NCBI GenBank assembly: GCA_024398295.1
Contig: JAKSJL010000001.1
Span: 1,589-65,588, forward strand
Length of the DNA: 64,000 nucleotides
Reading direction: 5' to 3'
Source of the DNA: Bacteroidales bacterium
Lineage (GTDB): Bacteria > Bacteroidota > Bacteroidia > Bacteroidales > UBA932
Shown in pieces: positions 171 to 21,290 of this stretch (within the stretch, counting starts at the first letter, position 1; each line of letters opens with the position of its first letter). The notes below the pieces were generated by a model. It saw only the letters and a list, made by a program, of their open reading frames with translations. It was not told the origin of the DNA and made no database searches. The translations under genes and the position numbers were made by a program.

Positions 171-815
171 TTAGCTAGTTAATAGGATTTTGATGCCATT
201 TGTCAGGAAGGCAAGTCCGAAACCGATCACGATGTAGCCGGAAACCATTATCATGTATCTGACAGTGCCCATCTTGAATTTCTCCCTGCACTTGCTGATG
301 AGAAGTGTGAAGAAGAACCAGTAGAATTCGGTGCCCAGGAAGACCATGGCTATGATGGAAATGGTAGGAACCAGTCCTGCCACCTCGATGCCAAAGAATG
401 AGAAGAGTGTGAAATGAACCAGTATCGCGCCTGGGTTCGAGAGGCCTGATGCCAGCGCCTGCCCCATGAATCCCCAACCTATGTCTGGAGTCTCTGCAGG
501 CATGAAATGCTGCTTCGGGCTGCTTGGCTTGGGAGGAATGCCTCTAAGCATCAGGGCTCCGACCATAAGGATCAGGGTGCCACCCACGAACATGACTATC
601 ATCTGATGATCGTCCAGGAATGACTGTACCAGGCTCAGTGCCAGCAGACTCAGTGTAGCGTAGCATGTGTCTACGACAGACGCGCCCTGGCTGGTGGCAA
701 ATCCGCCTAACCTTCCGTACCGGAGTGTCTTCTGCATCACGAGCATAGCTACCGGTCCCAGAGGGGCCGATGCACAGATGCCGATGACGAATGCTTTCAG
801 AAGCTCAGATACCAT
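171..815 (-). CDS. LysE family translocator
   Basis: Start moved to ATG 815 (MVSELLKAF); APLGPV, GRLGGF and LSNPG motifs; several hydrophobic helices; TATATTTG at 847-840. Confidence 0.85.
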   Translation of the reverse strand: MVSELLKAFVIGICASAPLGPVAMLVMQKTLRYGRLGGFATSQGASVVDTCYATLSLLALSLVQSFLDDHQMIVMFVGGTLILMVGALMLRGIPPKPSSPKQHFMPAETPDIGWGFMGQALASGLSNPGAILVHFTLFSFFGIEVAGLVPTISIIAMVFLGTEFYWFFFTLLISKCREKFKMGTVRYMIMVSGYIVIGFGLAFLTNGIKILLTS

Positions 816-854
816 TTTGGGTCTTTGTTTACAAAGACACAAATATAGCAAGAA

Positions 855-2117
855 TTATGCACATTTCAATAACAAGGCGCTGCGGAGAGCCTCCCAGTCA
901 TAGTAGCAGCCCTGTACTGGAGAAATGCCTATATGCAGTAGCCTTTCTCTCTCATTCTCAAGTATTTTCACGAGCACGTGACCTTTTCGGTCCCTGTAGA
1001 AAACGAGCTGGATGTTTGACGCCATGCAGAGGTGCTCGTCTGCGCGCCAGGTCTTGTGCGCGTCGACGAAGGAGATATCCTGATCAGCTCCGTCAATGCC
1101 CATGAGGCAGGCAAGGGGCAGGACGTTGCTGTCGTGCCCGAAGCAGAGGTCGGCGACGATGTGGCCATCGGAGAGCGCCTCGTCGGCCTTTTCCACTATC
1201 CGGCGCAGAAGGGGTGCAGCCGACCTCGCGCGTACGTCACCAGTCTCCAAGGTGCGCCCGCTCCATGCGAATGAGAGGTTGTTGCGCACGATGGCGTAGC
1301 CCTCGAGCTCGTCGATGTCGAAGAACTTGAAGAGGTCAAGTTCATCATCCCCTATGCAGATAGCCTCACAACCCAGCCCATACGCCAGGTTCGCGAATGT
1401 GCCAGGTGAAGCCAATGCTGCAGCTTTCTCTGTATCTGTGAATATCCTCGCGAAAAGCTTGTCGCCTTTCGAATGTGACCTTGTCAATGAGTCCGCTGTC
1501 CTTCTCGCAATCTTCTGCACGATGTCCACGGTCCCTTCAGGGGCAATGTAACTCTGATACCTGTCGCCGGCCGCGAAGCTGAACTCCAGCTGTGGGGCGC
1601 AGCCTCTGAGGGCGTTAGTGAATGCGCTCATGCTGACAAGGCAGCGTGGCGCTACAGATGACTCAGCCCTCACGGCGCCAGCCTTAACCTTGAAGACTTT
1701 TGGAAAGCGCTGGAACATCCTCTGTGCCAATGCTTTATGCTCGCTCTGTCCGAGCTCGGTGAGCTGCGCATAGCGTCCTTCCGCCTGCTTGCAGATGGCT
1801 TCAGTCCTGCGCAGCATCTCCTTCCCATCAGTGGTGAGGATGCCCAGGGTGTCTGCTTTCTGCATGATAGAAAGGAACTTCTGGTCCTTCACGCCATCTG
1901 ACATGAATCTGGCACCATGTCTTCCGAAATGACTGATGTACACGGGGGAGTATCCGCGAGGAGCCCCTGTATCAACCCTTGGCGACATGTCGTAAGGTGC
2001 AAAGACCGCTCCAGCACGTCTGGTATCTTCTTGAATGTAAGTACCATATGTTTGCTGGGCGCTCGCCGTGAGGCATGTCAGGAGCAATGATAATATGATT
2101 GGTCTAGTATACTTCAT
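855..2117 (-). CDS. Exported histidine acid phosphatase family protein
   Basis: Start at ATG 2117 with signal peptide MKYTRPIILSLLLTCLTASA; YISHFGRHGAR (RHGxR) and FGHD motifs. Confidence 0.85.
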   Translation of the reverse strand: MKYTRPIILSLLLTCLTASAQQTYGTYIQEDTRRAGAVFAPYDMSPRVDTGAPRGYSPVYISHFGRHGARFMSDGVKDQKFLSIMQKADTLGILTTDGKEMLRRTEAICKQAEGRYAQLTELGQSEHKALAQRMFQRFPKVFKVKAGAVRAESSVAPRCLVSMSAFTNALRGCAPQLEFSFAAGDRYQSYIAPEGTVDIVQKIARRTADSLTRSHSKGDKLFARIFTDTEKAAALASPGTFANLAYGLGCEAICIGDDELDLFKFFDIDELEGYAIVRNNLSFAWSGRTLETGDVRARSAAPLLRRIVEKADEALSDGHIVADLCFGHDSNVLPLACLMGIDGADQDISFVDAHKTWRADEHLCMASNIQLVFYRDRKGHVLVKILENERERLLHIGISPVQGCYYDWEALRSALLLKCA

Positions 2118-2124
2118 GTGTCTA

Positions 2125-2132
2125 CAAAGATA
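2125..2132 (-). promoter_or_regulatory. Bacteroidota sigma-A -7 element (TATCTTTG) for the phosphatase gene
   Basis: Matches TAnnTTTG on minus strand, 7 nt upstream of ATG 2117. Confidence 0.6.
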
Positions 2133-2170
2133 AATTATAAATTTATTTTTTAACGTAATCCGTGCCACCC

Positions 2171-2193
2171 TATAGTCATTTTGACTATATTTG
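2171..2193 (+). promoter_or_regulatory. -7 element TATATTTG (2186-2193) of the glpT-PTS operon overlapped by a perfect inverted repeat (candidate operator)
   Basis: TATAGTCA-TTT-TGACTATA at 2171-2189 overlaps the TAnnTTTG element. Confidence 0.55.
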
Positions 2194-2216
2194 TATGATA
2201 AAAGAACCAATCACTA

Positions 2217-3674
2217 ATGGCACAGAAAACTAAACACTCATTCAATTATTGGCAGTGGAGGGTCATCATAGGCACCATGGTGGGCTATGCGACCTTCTAT
2301 TTTGTGAGAAAGAATTTTTCGTTTGTTATCCCAGGCCTGACCGCTGAGTATGGCATCACCAAGTCCACTTTTGGTGTGATCATCGCTGCTGTCAGCCTCA
2401 TATATGGAGTATCCAAGCTGGTCAATGGCTTCCTTGCAGACCGTCTCAATGGACGTTGGCACATGGTCACAGGACTTTCAGTCAGTGCCATTGTCAATTT
2501 CCTCTTCGGTGCAGGTGCCATGATCTGTGCTTATTTCGTGGGTGCTGACTATGGCCCAGAGTTCACCAAGTCTCTTGTGGCGCTGTTTGCGGTGCTGCTC
2601 ATTGTGAACAATATCTTCCAGGGCTGTGGATTCCCTCCATGCAACCGTCTCATCACGCATTGGGTTCCACCTAAGGAGCTTGCTACAAAGATGTCCCTGT
2701 GGAACACGTCGCACTCTATCGGTGCGTTTGTGGCTGCTGTCCTCAGTGGCTTCATCATGGGCCATTTCGGAAAGGACATGCGTGGAAGCGAAGTCCTTCG
2801 CCAGAGAGTGATGGAGAATACCCAGGCTGTCACTGACAAGATGGACCCTACCCAGGCCCAGGCATATGTAGACGGTATGCTCCAGCATTATGGCGCATGG
2901 CAGTGGGCATTCTTTGTCCCAGCCATCATCGCTGTGATAGGTGTCATCTTCCTTATAATCACACTTCGTGATACCCCTAAGTCAGTGGGTCTTCCTGAGC
3001 TCAGTGATGGAAACGAGAAGGCAGAGCAGAGCGAGGACGACAAGAAGTCTCACAGAGAGTTCCTCATCAAGAAGGTCATCCTCAATCCTATAGTCTGGAT
3101 TCTTGCACTTGGTGACTTCTTCGTATATATCGTCCGTATGGCGGTACTTGACTGGGGCCCAACCTTCCTTCAGGAGAGCCGTGGCCTTACCCCTGGAGCT
3201 TCAGCTGCAGTCGTAGCTTGCTTCGAGGTGTTCGGAGTGCTCGGTATGCTTGCGGCAGGTGTCCTCACTGACAAGCTCTTCAAGAGCCGTGGCCAGAGAA
3301 CCTGCGTGTTCTGCATGCTTGGTGTGATGATCTTCATCGCGGCATTCTGCTTCCTTCCTATCAAGAACCCTATCGTGCTCAGTGTATTCCTTGTTTGCGC
3401 TGGATTCTTCATCTATGGTCCTCAGGCCCTTATCGGTGTCATCGCGTCAAACCAGGTGACACGCCGTGGAGCCTCTTCGGCGAACGGAATCATTGGCTTC
3501 GTAAGCTACCTTGCCCCTATCATCTCAGGCTGGGTATTCGGTAGCCTCGCGGATAACCACGGCTGGGAGCTTGTATTCAAGGTGATGATAGTAGTCGCAT
3601 TCCTTGGCCTTCTCACCATGCTTTCTCTCTGGAATACAGGAGCTGACGGATATAGCAGTGAAACTGAAAAATAG
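2217..3674 (+). CDS. glpT: MFS organophosphate:Pi antiporter, GlpT/UhpC family
   Basis: GYATFYFVRKNF, YGVSK, QGCGFPPC, WNTSHSIG, YIVR..DWGP, IYGPQAL motifs; next to a GDPD. Confidence 0.85.
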   Translation: MAQKTKHSFNYWQWRVIIGTMVGYATFYFVRKNFSFVIPGLTAEYGITKSTFGVIIAAVSLIYGVSKLVNGFLADRLNGRWHMVTGLSVSAIVNFLFGAGAMICAYFVGADYGPEFTKSLVALFAVLLIVNNIFQGCGFPPCNRLITHWVPPKELATKMSLWNTSHSIGAFVAAVLSGFIMGHFGKDMRGSEVLRQRVMENTQAVTDKMDPTQAQAYVDGMLQHYGAWQWAFFVPAIIAVIGVIFLIITLRDTPKSVGLPELSDGNEKAEQSEDDKKSHREFLIKKVILNPIVWILALGDFFVYIVRMAVLDWGPTFLQESRGLTPGASAAVVACFEVFGVLGMLAAGVLTDKLFKSRGQRTCVFCMLGVMIFIAAFCFLPIKNPIVLSVFLVCAGFFIYGPQALIGVIASNQVTRRGASSANGIIGFVSYLAPIISGWVFGSLADNHGWELVFKVMIVVAFLGLLTMLSLWNTGADGYSSETEK

Positions 3675-3682
3675 TACGAAAT

Positions 3683-4504
3683 ATGAAAAAGATCGTTGTT
3701 ACATTTATTGCCCTGGCCATGGCTGCCAGCGCTTACGCACAGACCCAGACTATTCGCGCATTCTCTCACCGTGGTGGTAGAATGGAGCGCGATGAAAATA
3801 CCCTCAAGGCATTCCAAGAGAGCTGGGATGCAGGATACACAGGTTTTGAGACGGATATCCGCATGACCAAGGATGGTGTCCTGTATATGACTCATGATCA
3901 TACACTCGAGCGTACTACAAATGGCACAGGTATCTTTGAGGAGCACACTTCAGCGGAGATCGATGCACTTGTGACCAAGAAGGGAAACAAGATTATGCGC
4001 TTCGAGGAGTTCTGCAAGTTCCTCGATGGTAAGGATAACCTCTATGTAGAGTGGGAGTTCAAGACCAAGCCAGAGGAGCTCTACCCACAGGAGAGACTGG
4101 AGAAGTATGTAGAGACCATCTATCAGGCCGTAAAGAAGATCAAGACAAAGAACTCTCAGATGGTGTTCACATCTTCTGACTATCGTGGACTCCGCTATCT
4201 TCAGACACATCATCCAGATGCAGAGCTTCTTCTTATCATCTCGAAGCCTATCAATGACGAGACCATCGCCATGGCGAAGACTGTAGGCATCTATACACTT
4301 GGTTGCAAGATGGAAGGCACTTCCAGAGCAATGGTGGAGAAGGCACATAAGGAAGGCATCACAGTGAGCCTCTGGCCAGGCCAGAGCGTGGAGGACTTCA
4401 TGCTGGGCGCATACCTCGGATGCGACCGTATGTGTACAGACGTGCCAGTCACAGTCATGAAGTGGATGAAGGAGAACGCTCCTTGGATCAAGGTTATCTA
4501 CTAG
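3683..4504 (+). CDS. Exported glycerophosphodiester phosphodiesterase (GDPD)
   Basis: Signal peptide; SHRGG, ENT, GFETD..TKDG..HD..L.RTT motifs. Confidence 0.9.
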   Translation: MKKIVVTFIALAMAASAYAQTQTIRAFSHRGGRMERDENTLKAFQESWDAGYTGFETDIRMTKDGVLYMTHDHTLERTTNGTGIFEEHTSAEIDALVTKKGNKIMRFEEFCKFLDGKDNLYVEWEFKTKPEELYPQERLEKYVETIYQAVKKIKTKNSQMVFTSSDYRGLRYLQTHHPDAELLLIISKPINDETIAMAKTVGIYTLGCKMEGTSRAMVEKAHKEGITVSLWPGQSVEDFMLGAYLGCDRMCTDVPVTVMKWMKENAPWIKVIY

Positions 4505-4506
4505 AC

Positions 4507-4770
4507 ATGACATCAAAGAACATCGTAATAACTGCCCCTAATGGACTCCATGCGCGTCCAGTAGGGGAGTTAGTCAAGCTGGTGAAGTCTTTTGCCGATT
4601 CGGCAGTGACCCTGTCGACTCCGGTGAAGACTGTCAAAGCCAGCAGTATGCTTTCCATACTCTCACTCGGCCTTAAGCAGGGCAGTGAGGTGGAGGTGAA
4701 AGTGGAAGGAGGAGACGAGGCTCAGGTACTTGAGGCTGTCTCTTCGTTCATTTCTTCTATCACTGAATGA
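4507..4770 (+). CDS. ptsH: Phosphocarrier protein HPr
   Basis: Start at ATG 4507 gives 87 aa with NGLHARP, His exactly at position 15; KASSMLSILSL carries the Ser46-equivalent. Confidence 0.93.
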   Translation: MTSKNIVITAPNGLHARPVGELVKLVKSFADSAVTLSTPVKTVKASSMLSILSLGLKQGSEVEVKVEGGDEAQVLEAVSSFISSITE

Positions 4771-6326
4771 CGATTAAAGGTATAGGAACCAGAGGCCTTG
4801 CGGCAGGAAGGGCGTTCATGAAGCCAGATGTGCACATGGACGTCATTTTCTGTGGTGACGCTACCGCTGCTTTCAAGGAAGCGTACGACGCGGTACACGC
4901 AGACCTTGAGGAACTGGCTGAAAAAGAGGATGTGTTCGCAGCACATCTCGAGATGCTTGAGGACCCTATGCTCAGTGAAAGCATAGAGGCTTTCCTCGGG
5001 GAGGACATGCCCCCAGTGGCCGCTGTCCAGGCGGCATGCGAGCAGGTCTGCGGCATGTCTGAGGATACAGACGACGAGTATCTTCGTGCGAGGGTCGACG
5101 ACGTCAGGGACGTCTGTCGACGACTGGAGAGAAAGCTATGTGGCGATGTCTTCACTTGGGGCGACATGGAGCCCGGGAGTGTGGTGGTCGCAGACGAGCT
5201 GCTCCCTTCGGATACCGCAGAGATGGATATGTCCAAGGTATCAGCTTTTGTGACTCACAGGGGAAGCCGCACCAGCCATGTCTGTATCATTGCAGGAAAT
5301 CATGGTGTCCCAGTAGTGGTCGGCACCGACATAAGTGGCATCACGAAGGGAGATGTACTTCTCGTAGATGCATATGCCGGTGAGGTCATAGTATGTCCTA
5401 CACCGCAGCAAATGAAGGATTTCGAGGCTCGTCTCGATATGGAGGAGTCATCCCTTGGAGAGGTTTATGAGCACCGTTTCGAGCCTGCTGTCACCCGGGA
5501 AGGAAAGAAGATACCTGTATTTGCAAACGCAGGAAACATAGGGGAGGTCGTGAGTGCCATGGAGGCCGGAGCCGATGGCATTGGCCTTTTCCGTACTGAA
5601 TTTGTGTTCATGCTCTCGAATCAGCTGCCATCAGAGAGCATACAGTTTGAGACCTATCGGGACGCTGTACTTGCCTGCAAGGGCAAGCCTCTCACCATCA
5701 GGACATTGGATATAGGTGGAGACAAGGCGTTGCCGTATATGGACATGCCGAAAGAGGAGAATCCTTTCCTCGGACTGAGGGGCATACGCTTCAGCCTGGC
5801 ACATCCGGAGATAATGTGTCCGCAGCTGCGCGCCATCCTTCGCGCCTCTGTATTTGGGCCTGTCAGGATCATGTTCCCTATGGTCGATACAGTCGAGGAG
5901 CTCAGTCAGGCGCTGGCTTGCCTTGATGAGTGTAAGCTGCAGCTTACCCAGGAGGGCATCAGCTTCGATCGCGACATCGAAGTGGGCATCATGATCGAGA
6001 CCCCTGCCGCCGTTATCATGGCGGACAAACTTGCCCAGCAGTGCTCATTCTTCAGCATTGGCACAAATGACCTTACGCAGTACATAATGGCTGCGGATAG
6101 GGGAAATGCTTCTGTATCATATCTTTACAATGCGCTCAGTCAGCCCGTGGCACGCGCCGTGGCGATGACCATCGATGCCGCTCACAGAGCCGGCATCAGG
6201 GTAGCCATGTGTGGCGAGCTGGCGTCTGACCTGAACGCTACGGCACTCCTGCTGGGACTGGGGCTTGATGCATTCAGCGTCGCCTCTCCGGCAGTACCAT
6301 CAGTCAAGGAAAACATCAGGAAATGA
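4767..6326 (+). CDS. ptsI: PEP-protein phosphotransferase, PTS Enzyme I
   Basis: GSRTSH phospho-His, GIGLFRTEF, RTLDIGGDK, ENPFLGLRGIR, SIGTNDLTQY, MCGE; ATGA overlap with ptsH. Confidence 0.95.
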   Translation: MTIKGIGTRGLAAGRAFMKPDVHMDVIFCGDATAAFKEAYDAVHADLEELAEKEDVFAAHLEMLEDPMLSESIEAFLGEDMPPVAAVQAACEQVCGMSEDTDDEYLRARVDDVRDVCRRLERKLCGDVFTWGDMEPGSVVVADELLPSDTAEMDMSKVSAFVTHRGSRTSHVCIIAGNHGVPVVVGTDISGITKGDVLLVDAYAGEVIVCPTPQQMKDFEARLDMEESSLGEVYEHRFEPAVTREGKKIPVFANAGNIGEVVSAMEAGADGIGLFRTEFVFMLSNQLPSESIQFETYRDAVLACKGKPLTIRTLDIGGDKALPYMDMPKEENPFLGLRGIRFSLAHPEIMCPQLRAILRASVFGPVRIMFPMVDTVEELSQALACLDECKLQLTQEGISFDRDIEVGIMIETPAAVIMADKLAQQCSFFSIGTNDLTQYIMAADRGNASVSYLYNALSQPVARAVAMTIDAAHRAGIRVAMCGELASDLNATALLLGLGLDAFSVASPAVPSVKENIRK

Positions 6327-8152
6327 AAGCACAGATACAAAGGTTTGGACGCGCTTTGAGCGCAATGGTCATGCCGAACATCGGCGCATTCATCGCATGG
6401 GGACTCATCACCGCCATCTTCATAAGTGGCGGCTGGTGGCCAAATGAGAAGATCGCCCTTCTGGTATCCCCAATGCTCAAGTACATGCTCCCGATGCTTA
6501 TCGCATACACCGCAGGTAAGAATGTAGCTGGCGACAGAGGAGGCGTGGCAGGAGCCGTAGCCGCCATGGGCGTCATTGTGGGCTCCGACACGCCGATGTT
6601 CATCGGAGCCATGATGATGGGACCGCTGGCGGGATACTGCGTGAAGAAGTTTGATGCTCTCGTGAAGGGCAAGGTCCACTCCGGCTTCGAGATGCTGGTG
6701 GACAACTTCTCGCTCGGTATCATTGCCATGATACTCGCTATCATTGGCCATCTCCTTATAGGTCACGCCGTTACATGGGTGACGGACCTGCTGAGCCATG
6801 GCGTGAACTGGATGCTCGCGCACAAGATGAACCCGCTGCTCGCGGTGCTCGTCGACCCAGCGAAGGTGCTCTTCCTTAACAATGCTGTAAATCACGGTAT
6901 CATGACTCCACTCGGCATCCAGCAGGCTGCGGAGATGGGACATTCGATGCTGTTCCTGATAGACCCGAATCCGGGTCCTGGTCTCGGAATACTGCTTGCA
7001 TGCTGGGTATTCGGCAAGGGCACGACCAAGCAGTCTGCTCCTGGCGCTGCTGTGATCCAGCTTTTCGGCGGTATCCATGAGATCTACTTCCCATATGTGC
7101 TGGCGCGCCCTATCCTGCTTCTCGCAGTGATGATAGGAAACATCTGCGCGCTGACCTTCTTCACCCTCGTGGACTTTGGTCTGGTGGCTCCAGCTTCGCC
7201 TGGCAGCCTTATCTCCATCATCATCATGTCGCCGAAGGGGCAGACTCTCATAGGCATACTGGGCGTGCTGCTCTCCACTGTAGTGTCATTCCTTCTGGCG
7301 TGGCCAATGGTCAAGGCCCGCCCTGACTTCCAGGGTGAGGAGGAGAACAAGAGCGCGTCGGAGCCGGTAGAACCGATGACGATGGACTCGTCCATCAGGA
7401 AGATAGTCTTCTCGTGTGATGCAGGTATGGGCTCCAGCGCTCTCGGCGCCACACGCTTCAAGGCCCGCCTCATGAAGGCTGGGCATCCTGAGGTCCTCTG
7501 CACAAACTCAGCTGTAGGAAGCATCCCTTCGGATGCGTCCGTGGTGGTTTGCCAGAAGCAGCTGGCAGAACGCGCCAGACAGACCGCTCCGTTCGCCAAG
7601 GTCATCGAGATCGAGAACTTCCTCTCCGATCCAGCTCTCGACTCTCTGCTCGCTGCTGTCGCGAAGCAGCAGTCAGGCGCTCCAGCTCCAGCTGCCGCTT
7701 TCGCTGTCGCGCAGCCTGCAGCTCCCGCTGCGCTCGTGTTGAAGCAGAACGTGATAGCGGGGCTCCCATCCGAGTCGAAAGAAGATGCGATACGCCGTGC
7801 TGGACGCATGCTTGTGGAGGCTGGATATGTGGATCAGGCTTATGCCGATGCCATGCTTGAGAGAGAGAAGATAGCCACCACTTACATGGGGGAGGGTCTT
7901 GCCATACCTCATGGTACTTCCGAGGCGAAGCAGGCAGTCAAGCACTCGGGTATTGTGGTCCTTCAGTATCCTGAGGGAGCTGATTTCGACGGAGAGAAGG
8001 CTCATCTGGTCATCGGAATAGCCGGCGTCGGAGACGAGCATCTGGAGATTCTGGCGAAGGTCAGTGAGGCACTTGAGGACGAGGAAATCCTGAATTCACT
8101 TTATTCTTCATCTGACGAAGATTTGTGGGGTTTTTTCAGCAAAATTCAGTAA
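6323..8152 (+). CDS. mtlA: PTS mannitol-type transporter subunit IICBA
   Basis: MVMPNIGAFIAWG, FLNNAVNHG, NPGPGLG, GGIHEIYFPY (IIC); CDAGMGSS (IIB Cys); Ala/Pro linker; AIPHG (IIA His). Confidence 0.93.
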   Translation: MKAQIQRFGRALSAMVMPNIGAFIAWGLITAIFISGGWWPNEKIALLVSPMLKYMLPMLIAYTAGKNVAGDRGGVAGAVAAMGVIVGSDTPMFIGAMMMGPLAGYCVKKFDALVKGKVHSGFEMLVDNFSLGIIAMILAIIGHLLIGHAVTWVTDLLSHGVNWMLAHKMNPLLAVLVDPAKVLFLNNAVNHGIMTPLGIQQAAEMGHSMLFLIDPNPGPGLGILLACWVFGKGTTKQSAPGAAVIQLFGGIHEIYFPYVLARPILLLAVMIGNICALTFFTLVDFGLVAPASPGSLISIIIMSPKGQTLIGILGVLLSTVVSFLLAWPMVKARPDFQGEEENKSASEPVEPMTMDSSIRKIVFSCDAGMGSSALGATRFKARLMKAGHPEVLCTNSAVGSIPSDASVVVCQKQLAERARQTAPFAKVIEIENFLSDPALDSLLAAVAKQQSGAPAPAAAFAVAQPAAPAALVLKQNVIAGLPSESKEDAIRRAGRMLVEAGYVDQAYADAMLEREKIATTYMGEGLAIPHGTSEAKQAVKHSGIVVLQYPEGADFDGEKAHLVIGIAGVGDEHLEILAKVSEALEDEEILNSLYSSSDEDLWGFFSKIQ

Positions 8153-8157
8153 ATTTG
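8150..8157 (+). promoter_or_regulatory. Internal -7 element (TAAATTTG) overlapping the mtlA stop codon
   Basis: TAnnTTTG match 20 nt upstream of ATG 8178, in an AT-rich stretch. Confidence 0.45.
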
Positions 8158-8177
8158 AAAGATGATTGAATAAGGTC

Positions 8178-9614
8178 ATGGGTAGGTCAGCATACATATA
8201 CATCCTTGCTGGTGCGCTACTTTTCTCGGCTTTTCCTCTTTTTGCGCAGAAGCCAGGAAAGGAGCGTGCTGATGAGCTGCTGAGTCGTCAGACTGCGGTA
8301 CGTGACTCGTATGCTGAGATAGTGGCTGATCCGGACAAGGCAGGCACCGTTTACTATACCTACGACCACGAGAACATCCCGGCTTACACCAAGGCTCCGA
8401 AGGGCTATAAGCCTTTCTACATCAGTCATTATGGCCGTCACGGAGAGCGTAACATCTCGTCAAATTCCGATGTCAGAAAGAACATGGAGCTTTTCCGTGA
8501 GGCTCATGAGCTGGGTATCCTCACAGAGAAGGGCGAGGAGTATCTGAGGCGTTACGAGAAGGCGTATCCATTCCTGGATGGCTTTGGCTCTGACCTTACT
8601 GGTCTCGGTGCCCAGAGCCAGCATATCATTGCCCGAAACATGTACCATAACTATCCTGAGGTCTTTCCTAAGGGCGCCAGGATAGATGCGAAATCTACCA
8701 TTGTCCCTCGCTGTATCCTCACCATGTCTGCATTTTGCGAAGGACTCAAGGAGCAGGATGCCAGCCTCAGGATCTCTCAGGCGGCAGGTGAGAATACCAT
8801 GTACTACCTGAATCCATTTACCCTGAATAACCCTGATGTCAAGCCTACAGATGAGGGCTATGATAACAAGAATGCTTACTGGCAGGCTTCCTTCAAGGAG
8901 CGTCTCAAGAACAGTGCAGACGCAGAGAAGGTATTCGGCCCGCTCATTACAGACCTCTCCATCCTGTCCAAGTATGGCAAGCCTGAGGACGTGGTGAAGC
9001 GTTTCTTCGCGGTGGCTCAGGCTGTCCAGTGCAACGAAAACGTGCAGGACCGTTTCTGGGAGTTCATCCCTATCGAGGAGACCTACAAGCTTTGGGATGC
9101 ACTGAACTACAGGTATTATAACTCCAAGGGCCCGGATGTGCTGTTCCAGAGGGGACGCCAGTGGGCCTTCGCATGGACTACTCTCCAGAACATCATCGAC
9201 CAGGCCGAGGAAGACATGCAGAGCGGCGAGTACAAGGCTCGCCTGCGTTTCGGACACGATATCATTGCCATGGCATTGTTCGCCCTCATGGACATACCTG
9301 GCTATAACATAGCAGTAGGGGATGCAGACCGCATCAAGGATGTGTTCCGCTCCTACGATTTCCCTATGTCACTCAACATCCAGTTCATCTTCTACAGGAA
9401 CAAGTCAGGAGATGTCCTGGTGAGGATGATGTACAATGAAAGAGACATGGTGCTCCCTATCGAGTCGGAGACTGCTCCGTACTACAGCTGGGACGCATTC
9501 AAATCATATTCTCTCCAGCGCATAGAGGTGGCCCAGAGGATCATCGCCACTACCCAGGCGCCGCCAGAGAAGACAGCAGCAAAGAAAATGACTACCATAG
9601 ATTTGGTTAATTAG
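8178..9614 (+). CDS. Exported histidine acid phosphatase family protein (paralogue of 855-2117)
   Basis: Signal peptide (..FSAFPLFA); YISHYGRHGER and FGHD motifs; start could be TTG 8166. Confidence 0.85.
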   Translation: MGRSAYIYILAGALLFSAFPLFAQKPGKERADELLSRQTAVRDSYAEIVADPDKAGTVYYTYDHENIPAYTKAPKGYKPFYISHYGRHGERNISSNSDVRKNMELFREAHELGILTEKGEEYLRRYEKAYPFLDGFGSDLTGLGAQSQHIIARNMYHNYPEVFPKGARIDAKSTIVPRCILTMSAFCEGLKEQDASLRISQAAGENTMYYLNPFTLNNPDVKPTDEGYDNKNAYWQASFKERLKNSADAEKVFGPLITDLSILSKYGKPEDVVKRFFAVAQAVQCNENVQDRFWEFIPIEETYKLWDALNYRYYNSKGPDVLFQRGRQWAFAWTTLQNIIDQAEEDMQSGEYKARLRFGHDIIAMALFALMDIPGYNIAVGDADRIKDVFRSYDFPMSLNIQFIFYRNKSGDVLVRMMYNERDMVLPIESETAPYYSWDAFKSYSLQRIEVAQRIIATTQAPPEKTAAKKMTTIDLVN

Positions 9615-9622
9615 TACATATC

Positions 9623-10774
9623 ATGAAAAAAGCAATCCAGTTTGGCGCGGGTAACATTGGCCGCGGTTTTATCGGAGCTGTCCTCGCAGAGGCCGGCTAC
9701 GAAGTGGTTTTTGCTGATGTAGTCGAGGAACTCCTCACAAACATCAACAGTAGAAAAGAGTATACCGTACACGTGACTGACGCAGTCAGCCGTGATATCG
9801 ATATCAAGGGTATCAGAGCTGTGAACTCAAACAGCCCAGAGGCAGTACAGGAGGTGGTGGACGCAGAGGTCATCACTACTGCGGTAGGTCTTCGCATCCT
9901 CAAGTTTGTGGCTCCAGCCATCGCGAAGGGCCTTGTAGCCAGAAAGGCGGCAGGAAATGAGGCTCCTCTCAATGTGATCGCCTGTGAGAATGGTCTTCGC
10001 GCCACCTCGCAGCTCAAGGAGCTCGTGTTCGCTCAGCTCGATGCTGAGACCGCTGCATGGGCGGAAAGCCATGTCGGCTTCCCTGATGCAGCCGTAGACC
10101 GCATCGTACCTCCAGTACGCTGTGAGATTCCTCTTGACGTGGCAGTGGAGGAGTATTTTGAGTGGGATGTAGAGAAGTCATCCTTCGTAGGTGAGATCCC
10201 TCAGATCCCTGGCATGACCCCAGTGGACAACCTCCTCGCCTATGTGGAGAGAAAGCTGTTCACCCTTAACACAGGACATGCGACAGCTGCATATCTTGGT
10301 AAGCTCAGAGGCATCTCTACCATCGGTGAGAGCATCGCTGACCCAGTGGTTGCACCTATCGTTAAGGCAGCTATGCAGCAGAGTGGAGAGGGCCTCGTGA
10401 AGAAGTTCGGCTTTGACCATGACGCTCACTTCGCATACATTGAGAAGATCCTCAAGCGCTTCTCGAACCCATTCCTTCGTGATGAGTGTAACAGAGTGGG
10501 ACGTGAGCCACTCCGCAAGCTCGCTCCAAATGACCGTCTCATCCTCCCTATGATGACAGCGAAGAGCTTCGGCCTTCCTTATGACAAGCTTCTTCTTGCC
10601 ATAGGTGGTGCACTCCACTTCGAGAATCCAGAGGATCCTCAGAGCGTGGAGATGCTTGCAAGCATCGCATCTGATGGACTTGAGGCTACCATTGTCAAGT
10701 ATACAGGTATCGAAGCCGGCGATCCACTTGTAGCAGAGATCGTTGAGGCTTATAAGGCAGTAGAAACACTTTAA
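9623..10774 (+). CDS. mtlD: Mannitol-1-phosphate 5-dehydrogenase
   Basis: QFGAGNIGRGFIG, ITTAVG, IACEN, VDRIVP, ERKLFTLNTGHA, RVGREPLRKL..DRL. Confidence 0.95.
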   Translation: MKKAIQFGAGNIGRGFIGAVLAEAGYEVVFADVVEELLTNINSRKEYTVHVTDAVSRDIDIKGIRAVNSNSPEAVQEVVDAEVITTAVGLRILKFVAPAIAKGLVARKAAGNEAPLNVIACENGLRATSQLKELVFAQLDAETAAWAESHVGFPDAAVDRIVPPVRCEIPLDVAVEEYFEWDVEKSSFVGEIPQIPGMTPVDNLLAYVERKLFTLNTGHATAAYLGKLRGISTIGESIADPVVAPIVKAAMQQSGEGLVKKFGFDHDAHFAYIEKILKRFSNPFLRDECNRVGREPLRKLAPNDRLILPMMTAKSFGLPYDKLLLAIGGALHFENPEDPQSVEMLASIASDGLEATIVKYTGIEAGDPLVAEIVEAYKAVETL

Positions 10775-10785
10775 CACTTAATACA

Positions 10786-11577
10786 ATGAAAGTTATTATC
10801 AGAGACACAAAGGCAGAGGCTTCCATCTGGGCAGCTCACCACATCGCAGATGCCATCAAGGCTAAGGCTGCGGTTACCGATGAACCATTCGTTCTCGGAC
10901 TCGCTACCGGTTCAACCCCTATCGAGACTTATGATGAGCTCGTAAGAATGTGCAAGGCTGGCGAGATTTCATTCAAGAACGTCATCACCTTCAACATGGA
11001 CGAGTATGTAGGTCTTCCTGTTGAGCATCCAGAGAGCTACCATTCATTCATGGACAAGTATCTCTTCAATCACATTGACATTGACAGAAAGAATGTTCAT
11101 CTTCTTGATGGAAATGCTCCTGATCTTAAGGAGGAGTGTGAGAAGTATGAGGAAATGATCTTTGACGCAGGTGGCATCGACCTCTTCCTCGGTGGTGTAG
11201 GTGAGGATGGACATCTCGCATTCAACGAGCCATTCTCTTCACTTTCTTCTCGTACCCGCGTGATGACTCTTACATACGACACCCGCGTCGTAAACTCAAG
11301 ATTCTTCGACAACGACGTGAACAAGGTGCCTGCCCAGGCTATGTCAGTAGGTGTTGCTACCGTTACTGATGCCAAGGAGGTTCTCATCGAGGGCTTCGGC
11401 TCAAAGAAGGCAAAGGCTATCCAGGCTGCTATCGAGGGTCCTGTAAGCCACTATGTTACCCTTTCTGCACTCCAGATGCATCCAAATGGCGTAGTCGTTA
11501 TCGATGAGGCTGCAGCTGGTGAGCTCAAGCTTAACTCATACAAGTACTTCAAGGCTGTCGAGGAGGCAGAGAAGTAA
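10786..11577 (+). CDS. nagB: Glucosamine-6-phosphate deaminase
   Basis: LGLATGSTP, TFNMDEYVGL..HPESY, GEDGHLAFNEP, NSRFF. Confidence 0.95.
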   Translation: MKVIIRDTKAEASIWAAHHIADAIKAKAAVTDEPFVLGLATGSTPIETYDELVRMCKAGEISFKNVITFNMDEYVGLPVEHPESYHSFMDKYLFNHIDIDRKNVHLLDGNAPDLKEECEKYEEMIFDAGGIDLFLGGVGEDGHLAFNEPFSSLSSRTRVMTLTYDTRVVNSRFFDNDVNKVPAQAMSVGVATVTDAKEVLIEGFGSKKAKAIQAAIEGPVSHYVTLSALQMHPNGVVVIDEAAAGELKLNSYKYFKAVEEAEK

Positions 11578-11579
11578 TC

Positions 11580-13223
11580 ATGAAAGGTCCGAGGAAGACA
11601 ATGCTGATCCTTGTGGTGCTCTTCGCTGTACTGATGAGCATCCCATGGCTTGTGCCGCATCTTGGCTTCCTCGCTCTATTTGGTTTAGTGCCACTGCTCT
11701 GTCTGGAACATATCGCGTTCCAGACAGGCCAGAGGCATTTTTGGTGGTGGCACTATGGCGCCTTTGTGCTCTGGAATGCTATCACTACCTTCTGGGTCTG
11801 CAATGCCACCGTGGGTGGCGGCATCTTCGCTGTCCTGGCGAACTCATTGCAGATGTCAGTCATCTTCGCGCTCTTCCACTACAGCCGCAAAAAGCTCAGG
11901 GGAGCGCTTCCATACATCTTCCTTGCGGCGATGTGGATCGCCTGGGAGAGATGGTATTTTGTGAGTGCGCAGATCTCATGGCCTTGGCTTGTGCTGGGCA
12001 ATGCTTTCGCGCGTACCACGCACCTTGTCCAGTGGTATGAATTCACAGGCACGCTAGGCGGCTCCCTGTGGGTTTGGGTCACAAATCTCGGAATCTTCGG
12101 CATCATGTCATCCCTTGCCAGCGGAAGCTGGGCGGGACTGAACATGAAGGCCCGTTCAGCCGCCATCACATCGCTTGCGCTGGCATTCTTCGCTCCGATG
12201 CTGCTTTCTTCTGTCATCTATTCAAGGTATGAAGAAGTATCTGAGGATCAGGTGGATGTGCTTATAGGCCAGCCAAATTTCGACCCTTATCAGAAGTTCA
12301 CATCCCTGTCACAGCAGCAGCAGAACGCCATTCTTCTGGACTTGTATAAGAGTGAACTCAAGGATGATTCTCCTGTACTTCTCCTCGCTCCAGAGACCTT
12401 CACTTCGGGTGTAGTCCTGGACAGATATGAGGAGGCTCCTACCTGGAGGGCTCTGTATGCCTTCCTTCAGGATCATAAATCGGCAAATATACTCTTCGGA
12501 GCGTCTACATACGGTTATTTCCTCACGGATGAAGCACCTTCGCTGTATGCGAGGAAGATCCGTGATGGCTTCTGGGTCGAGTCTCATAACTCAGCCATGA
12601 TGATGGATGCGACTTCCCGTACCGAGATTTTCCACAAGTCCAAGCTTGTGGTCGGTACAGAGCTTACCCCATATCCTCGTTTCTTTAACAAGATAGACGA
12701 TATGCTTGGAGGAGTGATGGCGCGCTGCTCCGGTCAGGAGGAGATATCAGTGCTTCATTTTCAGCAGAGAGATAACGCTGGGGCTCTCAAGAGAAATATC
12801 CCTGTGGGAAGCATAGTATGCTACGAATCCATCTACCCCGAGTACTGTACAGGCTATATCCGTAAGGGGGCGAAGTTCCTCACAGTTATTACCAATGATG
12901 CCTGGTGGGGAAATACAGCGGGGTATAAGCAGCATTTCAGCTACTCTAGACTGAGGGCGATAGAGACCCGTCGTGATATCGCAAGATGTGGAAACACAGG
13001 TATTTCCGCTTTCATTGATCAGAGGGGTGATGTGGTCACCCGTGGCCCTTGGTGGGAGGCATGTGTGCTTCGTGGCAAGGTTAACCTAAATTCCAAGGAG
13101 ACCTTCTTCGTAAGGAATGGAGACATCGTTGGTCGCGTCTGCACCTTCGTGTTCCTCCTCCTTCTTCTCTATCTGATCACGGTGCTCATCCCTAGAGACA
13201 CAAAAAAGGTGAAAAGCCTATAG
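11580..13223 (+). CDS. lnt: Apolipoprotein N-acyltransferase
   Basis: N-terminal TM helices, WPW..LG, QPNF; nitrilase triad PET / KSKLV / CYES; TNDAWWG..QH..RAIE. Confidence 0.92.
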   Translation: MKGPRKTMLILVVLFAVLMSIPWLVPHLGFLALFGLVPLLCLEHIAFQTGQRHFWWWHYGAFVLWNAITTFWVCNATVGGGIFAVLANSLQMSVIFALFHYSRKKLRGALPYIFLAAMWIAWERWYFVSAQISWPWLVLGNAFARTTHLVQWYEFTGTLGGSLWVWVTNLGIFGIMSSLASGSWAGLNMKARSAAITSLALAFFAPMLLSSVIYSRYEEVSEDQVDVLIGQPNFDPYQKFTSLSQQQQNAILLDLYKSELKDDSPVLLLAPETFTSGVVLDRYEEAPTWRALYAFLQDHKSANILFGASTYGYFLTDEAPSLYARKIRDGFWVESHNSAMMMDATSRTEIFHKSKLVVGTELTPYPRFFNKIDDMLGGVMARCSGQEEISVLHFQQRDNAGALKRNIPVGSIVCYESIYPEYCTGYIRKGAKFLTVITNDAWWGNTAGYKQHFSYSRLRAIETRRDIARCGNTGISAFIDQRGDVVTRGPWWEACVLRGKVNLNSKETFFVRNGDIVGRVCTFVFLLLLLYLITVLIPRDTKKVKSL

Positions 13224-14777
13224 CTTTCCACCCTTCTCGTCATAGAATTCATTTTGCAGAACCGTGAAGTTAGGGTCTTCTACGACCTTTACCTTGCACT
13301 TGTACTTTCTTCTCCACTTGGCCGTGAATGAATTCAGGCCTCGTGTAACGTAGGCTCCCAGGATAGGACCAACCTTGAGGGTGACACATTTCAGAGGCTT
13401 CTCTGCCAATATGTCGCTGAGCTTTCTCTCGATCTCCTCGTCAATCAGTGAACTTGCCGCGATCTTTCCGGTGCCGTGGCACATCGGACATACTTCCGTA
13501 GTGTTGATCTCGGTGACAGGGCGGATGCGCTGTCTGGTGATCTGCATCAGTCCAAACTTCGTGAGAGGGAGAACATTGTGTTTCGCCCTGTCACTCTCCA
13601 TCAGCTCCTGCATGTATTTGTACAGACCATTGCGATGCTCCTGGGTATCCATATCGATGAAATCCACGATCACAATGCCACCCATATCACGCAGACGCAG
13701 CTGACGCGCAATCTCTTCCGCTGCCAAGCGGTTCACCTCGTAGGTGTTTTCTTCCTGGTTCGTGGTCTTGGAGCGTGTGCCGCTGTTCACGTCGATGACG
13801 TTGAGCGCCTCTGTGGTCTCGATGACCAGATATGCTCCCTGCTTCATAGGTACCACCTTTCCGAATGAGCCTTTGATCTGGCGGTTCACTTCGAAATGCT
13901 CGAAGATAGGTTCCTTGCCTTCATAAAGCTTCACGATCTTCTCCTTCTCTGGTGAGATGATGGAGATATACTTCTTTGCTTCCTCGTAGACCTTCTCGTC
14001 ATTTACAAAGATGTTTGAGAATGAGTCGTTGAACAGGTCCCTGAGGATGGTGGTGGTCTTTGAGTACTCTGTGAACAGTATGTCTACTGTCTTCTTGGTA
14101 CTAACTTTCTTCCACGAACTTTCCCACTTTTCAATGAGCGATCGGAGCTCTCCTACAAGTATAGCTGTGTTCTTTCCTTCAGCTGCTGTGCGGATGATCG
14201 CTCCGTAATTTTTCGGGAGGATGCTCTTCACGAGCATCTCGAGCCTTTTCTTTTCCTCTTTAGATTCAATCTTCTGAGAAATGCTCACCTTCTCAGCGAA
14301 GGGGAGCAGTACAATGTTTCGTCCTGCTAATGAAATTTCCGCGGTAAGTCTGGATCCTTTCGTAGAGATGGGCTCCTTGACGATCTGGACCATGATAGGC
14401 TGTCCTACAGCCAGATGCTCTTCTATGCGTCCTTCCTTAGGAAGGATGCCTCCGAGCTTTATGCTGCTGTAGAGCTCTCCAGCATTTACATTTGAGTTTG
14501 TCTTCTTCACAAACTCGTCAAATGCGTTGAAGTAGAGACCCAGGTCCAGGTAATGGATGAAGGCTTCCTTGCTGTCGCCGATGTCCACGAATGCGGCGTT
14601 CAGGGCAGGAAGCAGTTTCTTCACCTTTCCCAGGAATACATCTCCGACGGAATAGGTGTGTCCTTGATTAGACTCCCGACTGTACTCGATAAGCCTGTGA
14701 TTCTCCATCAAGGCTATCTGGACTTCGCTGGGGGTGACGTCCACCACGAGGTCCTTCTCGGCTTTTTCAGTCTCCAT
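13218..14777 (-). CDS. rng: Rne/Rng family ribonuclease
   Basis: S1 domain (AAFVDIG), KEPISTKG, IDVNSG, LRLRDMGGIVIVDFIDM, CPMCHGTG. Confidence 0.92.
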   Translation of the reverse strand: METEKAEKDLVVDVTPSEVQIALMENHRLIEYSRESNQGHTYSVGDVFLGKVKKLLPALNAAFVDIGDSKEAFIHYLDLGLYFNAFDEFVKKTNSNVNAGELYSSIKLGGILPKEGRIEEHLAVGQPIMVQIVKEPISTKGSRLTAEISLAGRNIVLLPFAEKVSISQKIESKEEKKRLEMLVKSILPKNYGAIIRTAAEGKNTAILVGELRSLIEKWESSWKKVSTKKTVDILFTEYSKTTTILRDLFNDSFSNIFVNDEKVYEEAKKYISIISPEKEKIVKLYEGKEPIFEHFEVNRQIKGSFGKVVPMKQGAYLVIETTEALNVIDVNSGTRSKTTNQEENTYEVNRLAAEEIARQLRLRDMGGIVIVDFIDMDTQEHRNGLYKYMQELMESDRAKHNVLPLTKFGLMQITRQRIRPVTEINTTEVCPMCHGTGKIAASSLIDEEIERKLSDILAEKPLKCVTLKVGPILGAYVTRGLNSFTAKWRRKYKCKVKVVEDPNFTVLQNEFYDEKGGKL

Positions 14778-21165: not shown

Positions 21166-21290
21166 ATTCTAGGTTTTACTCTGTCACTAGCAAAATCCAA
21201 ACCTAAACTGGCTTACTGACAAAGTGTCTGGAAAAGAATAATGAAATTGATTTAGCCAAAATAGACAAGAAAGAACTATATTTGTATTCT

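What the first reader, a model, noticed from the sequence alone, without database searches (positions are those of the whole stretch)
4507..10774. Complete, self-contained mannitol-type PTS in a Bacteroidales chromosome
Seen: ptsH (His15), ptsI (TSH), fused EIICBA (IIB Cys, IIA His) and mtlD, all with intact phosphotransfer residues. ptsH-ptsI and ptsI-mtlA overlap by ATGA and ptsH starts 2 nt after the GDPD stop. Established: Bacteroidota generally lack sugar-transporting PTS and use SusC/D plus MFS/SSS transporters and kinases; in PTS-bearing phyla ptsHI is usually apart from mtlAD. Inference: a horizontally acquired minimal one-substrate PTS carrying its own general components, now under Bacteroidota TAnnTTTG promoters. 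By eye codon style matches the flanks and no mobile element is visible, suggesting an old acquisition.
Basis: partly seen in the sequence, partly recalled or inferred. Interest (0 to 1): 0.88.

Follow-up and report, generated by a model that had tools for sequence, protein, structure and literature searches.

The report
Complete mannitol-type PTS in gut Bacteroidales
A gut bacterium of an order thought to lack sugar-importing phosphotransferase systems carries a complete, intact mannitol-type one, shared with some relatives including Alistipes, in a gene run with phosphate-ester-scavenging genes, so it likely feeds on mannitol and mannitol-phosphate released from phosphorylated compounds.

Summary
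Confirmed and real. HPr, Enzyme I, fused EIICBA and MtlD are intact. Every phosphotransfer and catalytic residue checked is present, dN/dS is 0.04-0.08, and contigs from another study bridge both borders.

ptsH also has no promoter motif of its own: it follows a GlpT-like antiporter and a GDPD gene.

The system is patchy but not unique. mtlA is in 43 of 400 genomes of the genus (likely Ca. Cryptobacteroides) and in Rikenellaceae; the Alistipes finegoldii type strain has the EI. Order-wide, EI was found in 3 of 350 genomes. EI, MtlA and MtlD each form one Bacteroidales clade, so the acquisition is old; the donor is unresolved.

New here: Bacteroidales mtlD lies within 5 kb of an antiporter or GDPD gene in 37 of 51 loci (background 25 of 1123), but near mtlA in only 18. 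The PTS is likely one entry of a polyol-phosphate scavenging module.

The machinery is canonical and already annotated in NCBI; no paper on it was found in ten searches. This scan reported the three-gene PTS before on other DNA (e1-1970863). Substrate untested; 8 of 34 PTS genomes lack the mtlD orthologue.

The parts
855..2210 (-). Histidine acid phosphatase (branch 2), divergent from the operon; likely start at ATG 2117 with a signal-peptide-like N-terminus
   Evidence: PF00328; RHGxR motif in the translation; signal peptide judged by eye
2186..2193 (+). TATATTTG, candidate Bacteroidota -7 promoter element (consensus recalled) for the run antiporter-GDPD-ptsH-ptsI-mtlA
   Evidence: 36 matches in the window against 15.9 expected; no -33 TTTG at the canonical distance; function inferred
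2217..3674 (+). GlpT/UhpT-family MFS (organophosphate:phosphate antiporter family); substrate untested
   Evidence: TIGR00881 316 bits, TIGR00712 285 bits, both under their cut-offs; best PDB hit GlpT 1pw4, E 4e-60
3683..4504 (+). Glycerophosphodiester phosphodiesterase family protein with a signal-peptide-like N-terminus
   Evidence: PF03009 111 bits; PDB 2pz0
4507..4770 (+). ptsH, HPr, His15 in GLHARP; the only HPr match in the genome
4767..6326 (+). ptsI, Enzyme I, 519 aa; shortened by about 16 residues ahead of the aligned region and about 36 at the C-terminus; fold predicted intact
   Evidence: model pLDDT 90.4, TM-score 0.84 to 2wqd
6323..8152 (+). mtlA, fused EIICBA of the fructose-mannitol family; IIC 57%, IIB 40%, IIA 44% identical to an E. 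coli-type MtlA
8166..9614 (+).
   Evidence: PF00328; PDB 7r5y E 8e-51, Minpp 5cu7 E 1e-44
9623..10774 (+). mtlD, mannitol-1-phosphate 5-dehydrogenase family; catalytic triad and Arg phosphate pocket intact; TAGATTTG motif at 9598-9605 upstream
10786..11577 (+). nagB, glucosamine-6-phosphate deaminase; flanking core gene, same strand, 11 nt after mtlD
   Evidence: TIGR00502 368 > 237

Best explanation
The locus encodes a complete mannitol-type phosphotransferase system with its own Enzyme I and HPr, and it is likely one of two entry routes of a polyol-phosphate scavenging module that would feed mannitol-1-phosphate to MtlD and so into glycolysis. Shown: the genes, their family membership, intact active-site residues, purifying selection, a real chromosomal position, and the conserved linkage of mtlD to antiporter and GDPD genes. 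From established PTS biochemistry: PEP phosphorylates EI His171, then HPr His15, IIA His530 and IIB Cys365; IIC imports the hexitol and releases it as the 1-phosphate; MtlD oxidises it with NAD+ to fructose-6-phosphate. Inferred: periplasmic GDPD cuts phosphodiesters (for example polyol-phosphate cell-wall or capsule polymers of other gut microbes) to polyol-phosphate; this either enters directly through the GlpT-like antiporter, or is dephosphorylated by the periplasmic histidine phosphatase and taken up by the PTS together with free dietary or fungal mannitol. Also inferred: one old acquisition in a common ancestor of this genus and Rikenellaceae (or early transfer between them), then repeated loss, shuffling and trimming of EI.
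For: Family cut-offs passed for all four proteins. Eight EI catalytic positions are invariant in every row aligned except one X. IIB Cys and IIA His/Arg are kept in all full-length Bacteroidales MtlA rows and lost only in 4 IIC-only rows. EI and mtlA co-occur: 34 of 36 EI genomes have mtlA. dN/dS against L006: HPr 0.060, EI 0.079, MtlA 0.037, MtlD 0.037, phosphatase 0.082. MtlD keeps the three-Arg phosphate pocket that separates M1PDH from mannitol 2-dehydrogenase (PMC6623548 passages). 37 of 51 Bacteroidales mtlD loci (>=50% identity) have a GlpT-like MFS or GDPD gene within 5 kb, against 25 of 1123 long ORFs in the own genome and 0 of 15 outgroup mtlD loci; only 18 of 51 have mtlA within 5 kb. 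The link is on basal Rikenellaceae branches too (L064, L257, L258). 16 of 46 genus genomes with this mtlD have neither mtlA nor EI, which fits a PTS-independent entry of the phosphorylated polyol. Other neighbours are metallophosphoesterases, alkaline phosphatase, SusD and G1PDH-like dehydrogenases. Single clades: MtlA SH-aLRT 95, EI 98-99, MtlD 98.
Against: No biochemical or expression data. 8 of 34 genus genomes with mtlA and EI lack the mtlD orthologue. Four of them, 95-98% complete (G084, G174, G032, G366), have no PF01232 match at all although their IIC motifs are unchanged, so mannitol-1-phosphate would have no obvious exit there. Ribulokinase lies beside the cassette in L016, L017 and L130 and araD between mtlA and ptsH in L029, which hints at pentitols. 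The 51 loci are related, not independent, and some are short. In the window itself mtlD is more than 5 kb from the antiporter and GDPD (5.9 and 5.1 kb in the syntenic L006), so the window would not pass my 5 kb rule. In the 80 Alistipes-type metagenome loci mtlA-ptsH-ptsI stands without mtlD or the antiporter; in G798 mtlD-GDPD-MFS is a separate cluster about 35 kb away. The antiporter and GDPD could simply serve glycerophosphodiesters, and the phosphatase phytate. No abundant gut source of mannitol-phosphate esters turned up in the paper search.
Confidence: 0.55

Rival explanations
1. A plain PTS for free mannitol (forage, fungi, silage); the antiporter, GDPD and phosphatase neighbours serve glycerophosphodiesters or phytate and cluster nearby for unrelated reasons.
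For: All four proteins are canonical. The three-gene core travels alone in many loci (L007, L010, L021, L023, L028, L030 and the Alistipes-type loci). The genome holds 4 such antiporters, 5 GDPD matches and 5 histidine phosphatases.
Against: mtlD is linked to antiporter or GDPD in 37 of 51 loci against 2.2% background, in many gene orders and in two families. 16 genomes keep mtlD without the PTS.
Confidence: 0.2
2. The transporter's main substrate is another polyol (D-arabitol, ribitol or glucitol, for example from teichoic acids or fungi), and the phosphate is oxidised by MtlD or by a G1PDH-like iron dehydrogenase.
For: PTS genomes without any PF01232 protein each have an Fe-ADH_2 protein (5 of 5). 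Ribulokinase, araD and G1PDH-like genes lie beside the cassette in several loci. E. coli MtlA accepts other polyols weakly (recalled).
Against: The IIC motifs NHG and GGIHE match E. coli MtlA, and the window's MtlD keeps all 10 M1PDH residues checked. The Fe-ADH_2 genes in the three mtlD-less genomes inspected are not near the PTS (L278-L280), and such genes are common (3 in the own genome).
Confidence: 0.15
3. The module runs mainly outward: MtlD reduces fructose-6-phosphate as an electron sink or for osmolyte supply, the antiporter exports mannitol-1-phosphate, the periplasmic phosphatase frees mannitol, and the PTS recaptures it later.
For: M1PDH is reversible (PMC6623548 passages). mtlD sits directly behind a phosphatase gene here. 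mtlD occurs without the PTS in 16 genomes.
Against: A histidine phosphatase is next to mtlD only here, in L006 and near it in L251. GDPD, SusD and metallophosphoesterase neighbours point to uptake and breakdown.
Confidence: 0.06
4. EI and HPr are kept mainly for regulation, as a remnant of the transport-less PTS of other Bacteroidota classes, and transport is vestigial.
For: EI is in 125 of 165 phylum genomes, with no EIIC match in 5 of 5 tested. The AU test does not reject a joint EI clade (p=0.129). EI diverges faster than MtlA (42-52% against 69-75% to most named relatives).
Against: EI is found almost only with mtlA in the genus (34 of 36). No HPr kinase match in the own genome (76% complete). 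The cassette EI is closer by BLAST to EIs of G753, the genome of the Vallitaleaceae locus L054 (38-42%), than to most EIs of the other classes (33-41%). MtlA is under strong purifying selection.
Confidence: 0.03
5. Assembly or binning artefact.
For: The genome is a 76% complete, 125-contig assembly.
Against: Independent contigs bridge both borders; L006 is syntenic; orthologues sit beside rpoC, recA, rng and lon in other genomes.
Confidence: 0.01

Closest known systems
E. coli mannitol PTS, mtlADR (MtlA EIICBA, TCDB 4.A.2 fructose-mannitol family; MtlD)
   Same: Fused IICBA order, the same phosphoacceptor and IIC residues, M1PDH partner.
   Different: Carries its own ptsH and ptsI; no regulator gene among the ORFs of the locus; a phosphatase gene lies between mtlA and mtlD; embedded with antiporter and GDPD genes; EI about 55 aa shorter.
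Self-contained single-sugar PTS clusters, such as the haloarchaeal fructose PTS and the Pseudomonas fru system (recalled, not read here)
   Same: General components EI and HPr are dedicated to one transporter in a host that otherwise lacks sugar PTSs.
   Different: Mannitol family, separate EI and HPr polypeptides, Bacteroidales host.
GlpQ-GlpT glycerophosphodiester scavenging (recalled; GlpT 1pw4)
   Same: Secreted GDPD next to an organophosphate:Pi antiporter.
   Different: The linked dehydrogenase is an M1PDH-family enzyme, not a glycerol-3-phosphate dehydrogenase, and a polyol PTS is attached; the antiporter scores below the glpT cut-off (285 < 633).
Mannitol use in Bacteroidia through mannitol 2-dehydrogenase and fructokinase (PMC11333855, passages)
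   Same: Same end product, fructose-6-phosphate.
   Different: That study found PTS components or M1PDH only in Clostridia, one Bacilli and one Gammaproteobacteria MAG, not in Bacteroidia; here the PTS-M1PDH route is in Bacteroidales.
Earlier scan finding e1-1970863 (three-gene mannitol PTS in a human-gut Bacteroidales; AI note)
   Same: mtlA, ptsH, ptsI together in Bacteroidales and Alistipes.
   Different: Its summary names no mtlD, antiporter, GDPD or phosphatase link; this locus has all of them.

Membership tests
Complete sugar-transporting PTS | Enzyme I with phospho-His and PEP-binding residues | tested here: met
   TIGR01417 494 > 342; His171, Cys482 align to E. coli His189, Cys502; 8 positions conserved; EI fold
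Complete sugar-transporting PTS | HPr with His15 | tested here: met
   GLHARP
Complete sugar-transporting PTS | EIIA, EIIB and membrane EIIC with phosphoacceptors | tested here: met
   PF00359, PF02302, PF02378 above cut-off; His530, Cys365
Complete sugar-transporting PTS | PEP-dependent transport with phosphorylation | not testable with these tools
   needs a biochemical assay
Mannitol EII (MtlA, fructose-mannitol family) | IICBA model and NHG / GGIHE motifs | tested here: met
   NF011663 694 > 589; TIGR00851 467.0, just under its 468.4 cut-off; motifs
Mannitol EII (MtlA, fructose-mannitol family) | Mannitol as physiological substrate | tested here: inconclusive
   mtlD linked here, but 8 of 34 PTS genomes lack the orthologue
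Mannitol-1-phosphate 5-dehydrogenase | Asn-Lys-Asn catalytic triad and three-Arg phosphate pocket | tested here: met
   N123, K211, N216, R294, R298, R305 match S. aureus N119, K200, N205, R283, R287, R294
Canonical mtl operon | MtlR regulator in the operon; general PTS genes elsewhere | tested here: not met
   no regulator among ORFs 171-14777; ptsHI inside the operon and single-copy
GlpT (glycerol-3-phosphate antiporter equivalog) | TIGR00712 cut-off | tested here: not met
   284.6 < 632.55; family-level relative only
Mobile genomic island | Integrase or transposase, tRNA site, flanking repeats, odd composition | tested here: not met
   no such hit among the ORFs scanned; no tRNA; no convincing terminal repeat; codon fit within the genome's range
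Regulatory (transport-less) PTS of other Bacteroidota classes | EI and HPr without EIIC | tested here: not met
   EIIC present; EIs fall in separate clades, joint clade not rejected

The most novel reading that the evidence does not exclude
Ca. Cryptobacteroides and some Alistipes run an undescribed pathway that strips polyol-phosphate from the cell-wall or capsule polymers of neighbouring microbes: periplasmic phosphodiesterase and phosphatase release the units, an antiporter takes the phosphorylated form, a PTS with its own trimmed EI and HPr takes the free polyol, and an M1PDH-family enzyme feeds both into central metabolism. It would be the first working sugar PTS in Bacteroidales known to me and is testable in the cultured A. 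finegoldii type strain.
Probability: 0.3. Interest if true: 0.75.

Novelty: new variant of a known kind. Interest (0 to 1): 0.52.

Why it matters
Lack of a PTS is a working assumption in Bacteroidales physiology. It is stated for Bacteroides in PMC12078602, and a 2026 review lists no characterised glycoside PTS from Bacteroidota (PMC13543919 Table 3). This shows that the rule has recurring exceptions in herbivore-gut and human-gut lineages: one old mannitol-type system, plus separate glucose-family systems in two other families. A cultured strain makes it testable. The conserved mtlD-GDPD-antiporter link points to a possible unrecognised carbon and phosphate source (polyol-phosphate esters) for an abundant, mostly uncultured genus, and a naturally trimmed EI with a single partner is a model of a minimal PTS.

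Tried and rejected
Donor search failed. All trees are 'quick' IQ-TREE runs with SH-aLRT only; the careful MtlA tree did not finish. P0004 (1026 aa) looked like a fusion but is a tandem repeat of an E. coli-type MtlA; P0185 (EIIC joined to EI, one sequence on one contig) may be an assembly deletion and was not used as evidence of fusion. A YggP/SorE-type dehydrogenase or 1-phosphofructokinase upstream of the Alistipes operon was considered and rejected: those genes are glyA, a TIGR02453 protein and an esterase. Expression: no RNA holder listed, which says nothing either way. The sigma-70 promoter and terminator scan was at chance level. Papers: ten searches gave no listing that describes this system. 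The A. finegoldii genome paper has 0 occurrences of 'PTS', 'phosphotransferase' or 'mannitol' (PMC3739176); PMC4149002 Table 2 gives 'na' for A. finegoldii mannitol and '+' for A. indistinctus; PMC10465942 and PMC12282095 had nothing relevant. Barabote and Saier 2005 is not held, and most subscription papers are not searched. No supplements were opened; those of PMC11333855 (mannitol gene tables) and PMC13543919 may bear on novelty. No complex prediction was sent, since EI-HPr is a textbook pair.
Full report
Observation. Each passes a curated family cut-off (TIGR01003, TIGR01417, NF011663, NF002646). EI His171 and Cys482 align to His189 and Cys502 of E. coli EI. MtlA His191, His252, Glu253, Cys365, Arg514 and His530 align to positions 195, 256, 257, 384, 538 and 554 of an E. 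coli-type MtlA (the roles of these E. coli positions are recalled). MtlD keeps the catalytic triad and the three-Arg phosphate pocket described for S. aureus M1PDH (PMC6623548, passages). EI is 519 aa: it aligns from residue 51 to E. coli residue 67 and ends at E. coli 538. Its model is confident (pLDDT 90.4) and matches full-length EI (TM 0.84 to 2wqd). The genome (76% complete) has one HPr, one EI beside one other PEP-utilising enzyme, one PF02378 EIIC and no HPr kinase match.

A 482-aa histidine acid phosphatase (8166-9614; best PDB hits 7r5y and Minpp) lies between mtlA and mtlD. Upstream on the same strand are a GlpT/UhpT-family antiporter (2217-3674) and a GDPD (3683-4504); a second histidine phosphatase is divergent. 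GDPD and both phosphatases have signal-peptide-like N-termini (by eye). TAnnTTTG motifs (consensus recalled) are at 2186, 3931 (inside GDPD), 8150 and 9598; none is directly upstream of ptsH. ptsH-ptsI-mtlA is therefore likely read from the promoter ahead of the antiporter.

It is real. A contig of run X2, from a study other than the best holder's, covers 2727-6394 and another 7723-11005, bridging both borders, with flat depth (4 of 24 listed runs were laid). L006 has the same order from lysE to lon at 78-99% identity. dN/dS against L006 is 0.037-0.082 for the five cassette genes and 0.013-0.068 for six flanking genes. Codon fit lies between the 8th (HPr) and 69th (MtlD) percentile of 1123 long ORFs; HPr and EI are at the low end. 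No integrase, transposase, tRNA or convincing terminal repeat was seen.

Host and spread. The closest named loci are titled Bacteroidales bacterium or Ca. Cryptobacteroides sp., from horse faeces, rumen and faecal MAGs, and they cluster with same-genus handles in the trees, so the genus is likely Ca. Cryptobacteroides. In 400 genomes of the genus, mtlA matched 43, EI 36 and mtlD 55, of which 46 at 50% identity or more (9 weaker paralogue-only genomes dropped). 34 have mtlA and EI, 26 of these also mtlD; 16 have mtlD alone. In 350 genomes drawn across the order, EI matched 3, 2 over the cut-off; these two belong to separate glucose-family systems with EIIA-Glc and IICB or IIBC (L127, L128). In the family of the Rikenellaceae locus L064, mtlA matched 3 of 131, the centre genome included. 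A cluster of EI homologues contains AFL79315.1 of Alistipes finegoldii DSM. Of the best 80 of 377 metagenome loci found with it, 77 carry mtlA and 78 ptsH, none mtlD. I did not read the type strain's genome itself. NCBI already names several of these proteins 'PTS mannitol transporter subunit IICBA [Bacteroidales bacterium]'. At phylum level EI is common: 125 of 165 genomes, all marked as outside the class, while the 20 listed non-matching rows (of 40) are in the same class or order. 11 of 20 such EI loci have an HPr match within the 1.5 kb flanks, and 0 of 5 genomes tested have a PF02378 EIIC.

History. Bacteroidales MtlA (IIC domain), EI and MtlD each form one clade holding both families, with Rikenellaceae rows near the base (SH-aLRT 95, 98-99 and 98; quick trees, sparse outgroups). 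On an RNase G tree of 60 rows chosen by me (33 PTS-bearing), the PTS label needs 13 changes, at least 9 forced by well-supported branches, and is clustered more than shuffles (3 of 500 as low). Several subclades recur in the MtlA and RNase G trees (for example G084/G174/G258/G366/G032 and G061/G171/G399). This fits an old acquisition with repeated loss, though re-transfer within the genus is not excluded. The donor is not resolved, and holding cassette EIs together with the EIs of other Bacteroidota classes is not rejected (p-AU 0.129). Horizontal origin is thus an inference from rarity in the class and order, not a result.

The larger module. Gene order varies widely, but phosphate-ester genes follow. 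Of 51 Bacteroidales mtlD loci at 50% identity or more, 29 have a GlpT-like MFS and 20 a GDPD gene within 5 kb (37 either), against 18 with mtlA; 0 of 15 outgroup mtlD loci show this, and the background in the own genome is 25 of 1123 ORFs. The loci are related and some are short, so this is not a statistical test, but the link appears on basal Rikenellaceae branches and in many orders. By the same 5 kb rule the window itself would just miss. Further neighbours are metallophosphoesterases, alkaline phosphatase, SusD, G1PDH-like dehydrogenases, ribulokinase and araD. In G798, which has the Alistipes-type neighbourhood, mtlA-ptsH-ptsI and mtlD-GDPD-MFS are two clusters about 35 kb apart.

Mechanism. 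Shown: the parts, their residues, selection and linkage. From established PTS chemistry: PEP to EI to HPr to IIA to IIB to the hexitol entering through IIC, then oxidation by MtlD to fructose-6-phosphate. Inferred: periplasmic GDPD and phosphatase release polyol-phosphate and free polyol from phosphodiesters; the antiporter imports the first, the PTS the second, and both meet at MtlD. That would explain mtlD without a PTS in 16 genomes. It does not explain a PTS without mtlD: 8 of 34 genomes, four of them 95-98% complete with no PF01232 match, while their IIC motifs are unchanged. Either another dehydrogenase acts there (each of 5 tested has an Fe-ADH_2 protein) or the substrate range is wider than mannitol. 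I put 0.55 on the two-entry mannitol model, 0.2 on a plain mannitol PTS, 0.15 on another polyol, and little on the rest; a working transport PTS of some polyol is about 0.9.

Comparison and novelty. It works like E. coli MtlA-MtlD and meets the sequence tests for that family; it does not meet those for a canonical mtl operon or a mobile island. Self-contained single-sugar PTS clusters are known in other hosts (recalled). Print seen by me says Bacteroides lack PTS orthologues (PMC12078602, passages), lists no characterised glycoside PTS from Bacteroidota (PMC13543919, passages with Table 3), and assigns Bacteroidia mannitol use to mannitol 2-dehydrogenase (PMC11333855, passages). Ten searches (listings only, apart from the papers named) found no description of this system; subscription papers, Barabote and Saier 2005 and all supplements were not seen.

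Verdict. Real, canonical machinery in an unexpected but not unique host group, database-annotated and untested, with a conserved link to phosphate-ester scavenging that is the new part.

Noticed in passing
L127:8018-11976 (G530) and L128:6534-10594 (G565): Two other Bacteroidales families carry separate complete-looking glucose-family PTSs (EIIA-Glc, EI, HPr, IICB or IIBC); their EIs fall outside the mannitol-cassette clade. L127's lies between a GH141-domain gene and a GH31 gene.
   Followed up: partly
L130:5583-6650, L131:5991-7073, L138:5772-6866, L027:9995-11089: IIC-only MtlA genes with no IIB or IIA, in genomes with no EI match (G143, G194, G197); L130's is divergent from a ribulokinase gene, and L131 has Trp in place of the NHG histidine. 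Possible facilitators or remnants.
   Followed up: partly
G084, G174, G032, G366 (L079, L081, L002, L080): A clade of 95-98% complete genomes with mtlA, ptsH and ptsI but no mannitol-dehydrogenase-family protein; the fate of the phosphorylated product is unexplained.
   Followed up: partly
L340-L359: EI is nearly universal in Bacteroidota outside this class (125 of 165 sampled), often next to HPr, with no PF02378 EIIC in 5 of 5 tested: probably a transport-less regulatory PTS.
   Followed up: partly
G000 contigs C33:2084-3421, C45:2025-3407, C48:13530-14900: Three G1PDH-like iron dehydrogenases in the own genome; one follows a histidine phosphatase and one is divergent from a gene that looks GatZ/KbaZ-like by eye, suggesting further polyol-phosphate routes.
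   Followed up: partly
L011, L013, L015, L018, L020, L025, L121, L122: A subclade with EIs trimmed further, to 457-477 aa, with all eight catalytic positions intact.
   Followed up: partly
L132 (G278:C16): This same-genus genome's MtlA groups with the Alistipes-type sequences and has an esterase neighbour 78% identical to theirs: a transfer between families or a misbinned contig.
   Followed up: no
L276:6709-7923, L277:7107-8321: A distant MtlD paralogue (about 40% identity) with Tyr at the position of the last phosphate-binding Arg, next to GH92 or Stealth-family genes.
   Followed up: no
P0185: One 840-aa protein joining the mannitol EIIC directly to EI without IIB, IIA or HPr; single sequence on one contig, possibly an assembly deletion.
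   Followed up: no
window 21282-22412: Stand-alone alanine racemase matching only the C-terminal half of the Bacteroidota Mur ligase-alanine racemase fusion model NF008897.
   Followed up: no
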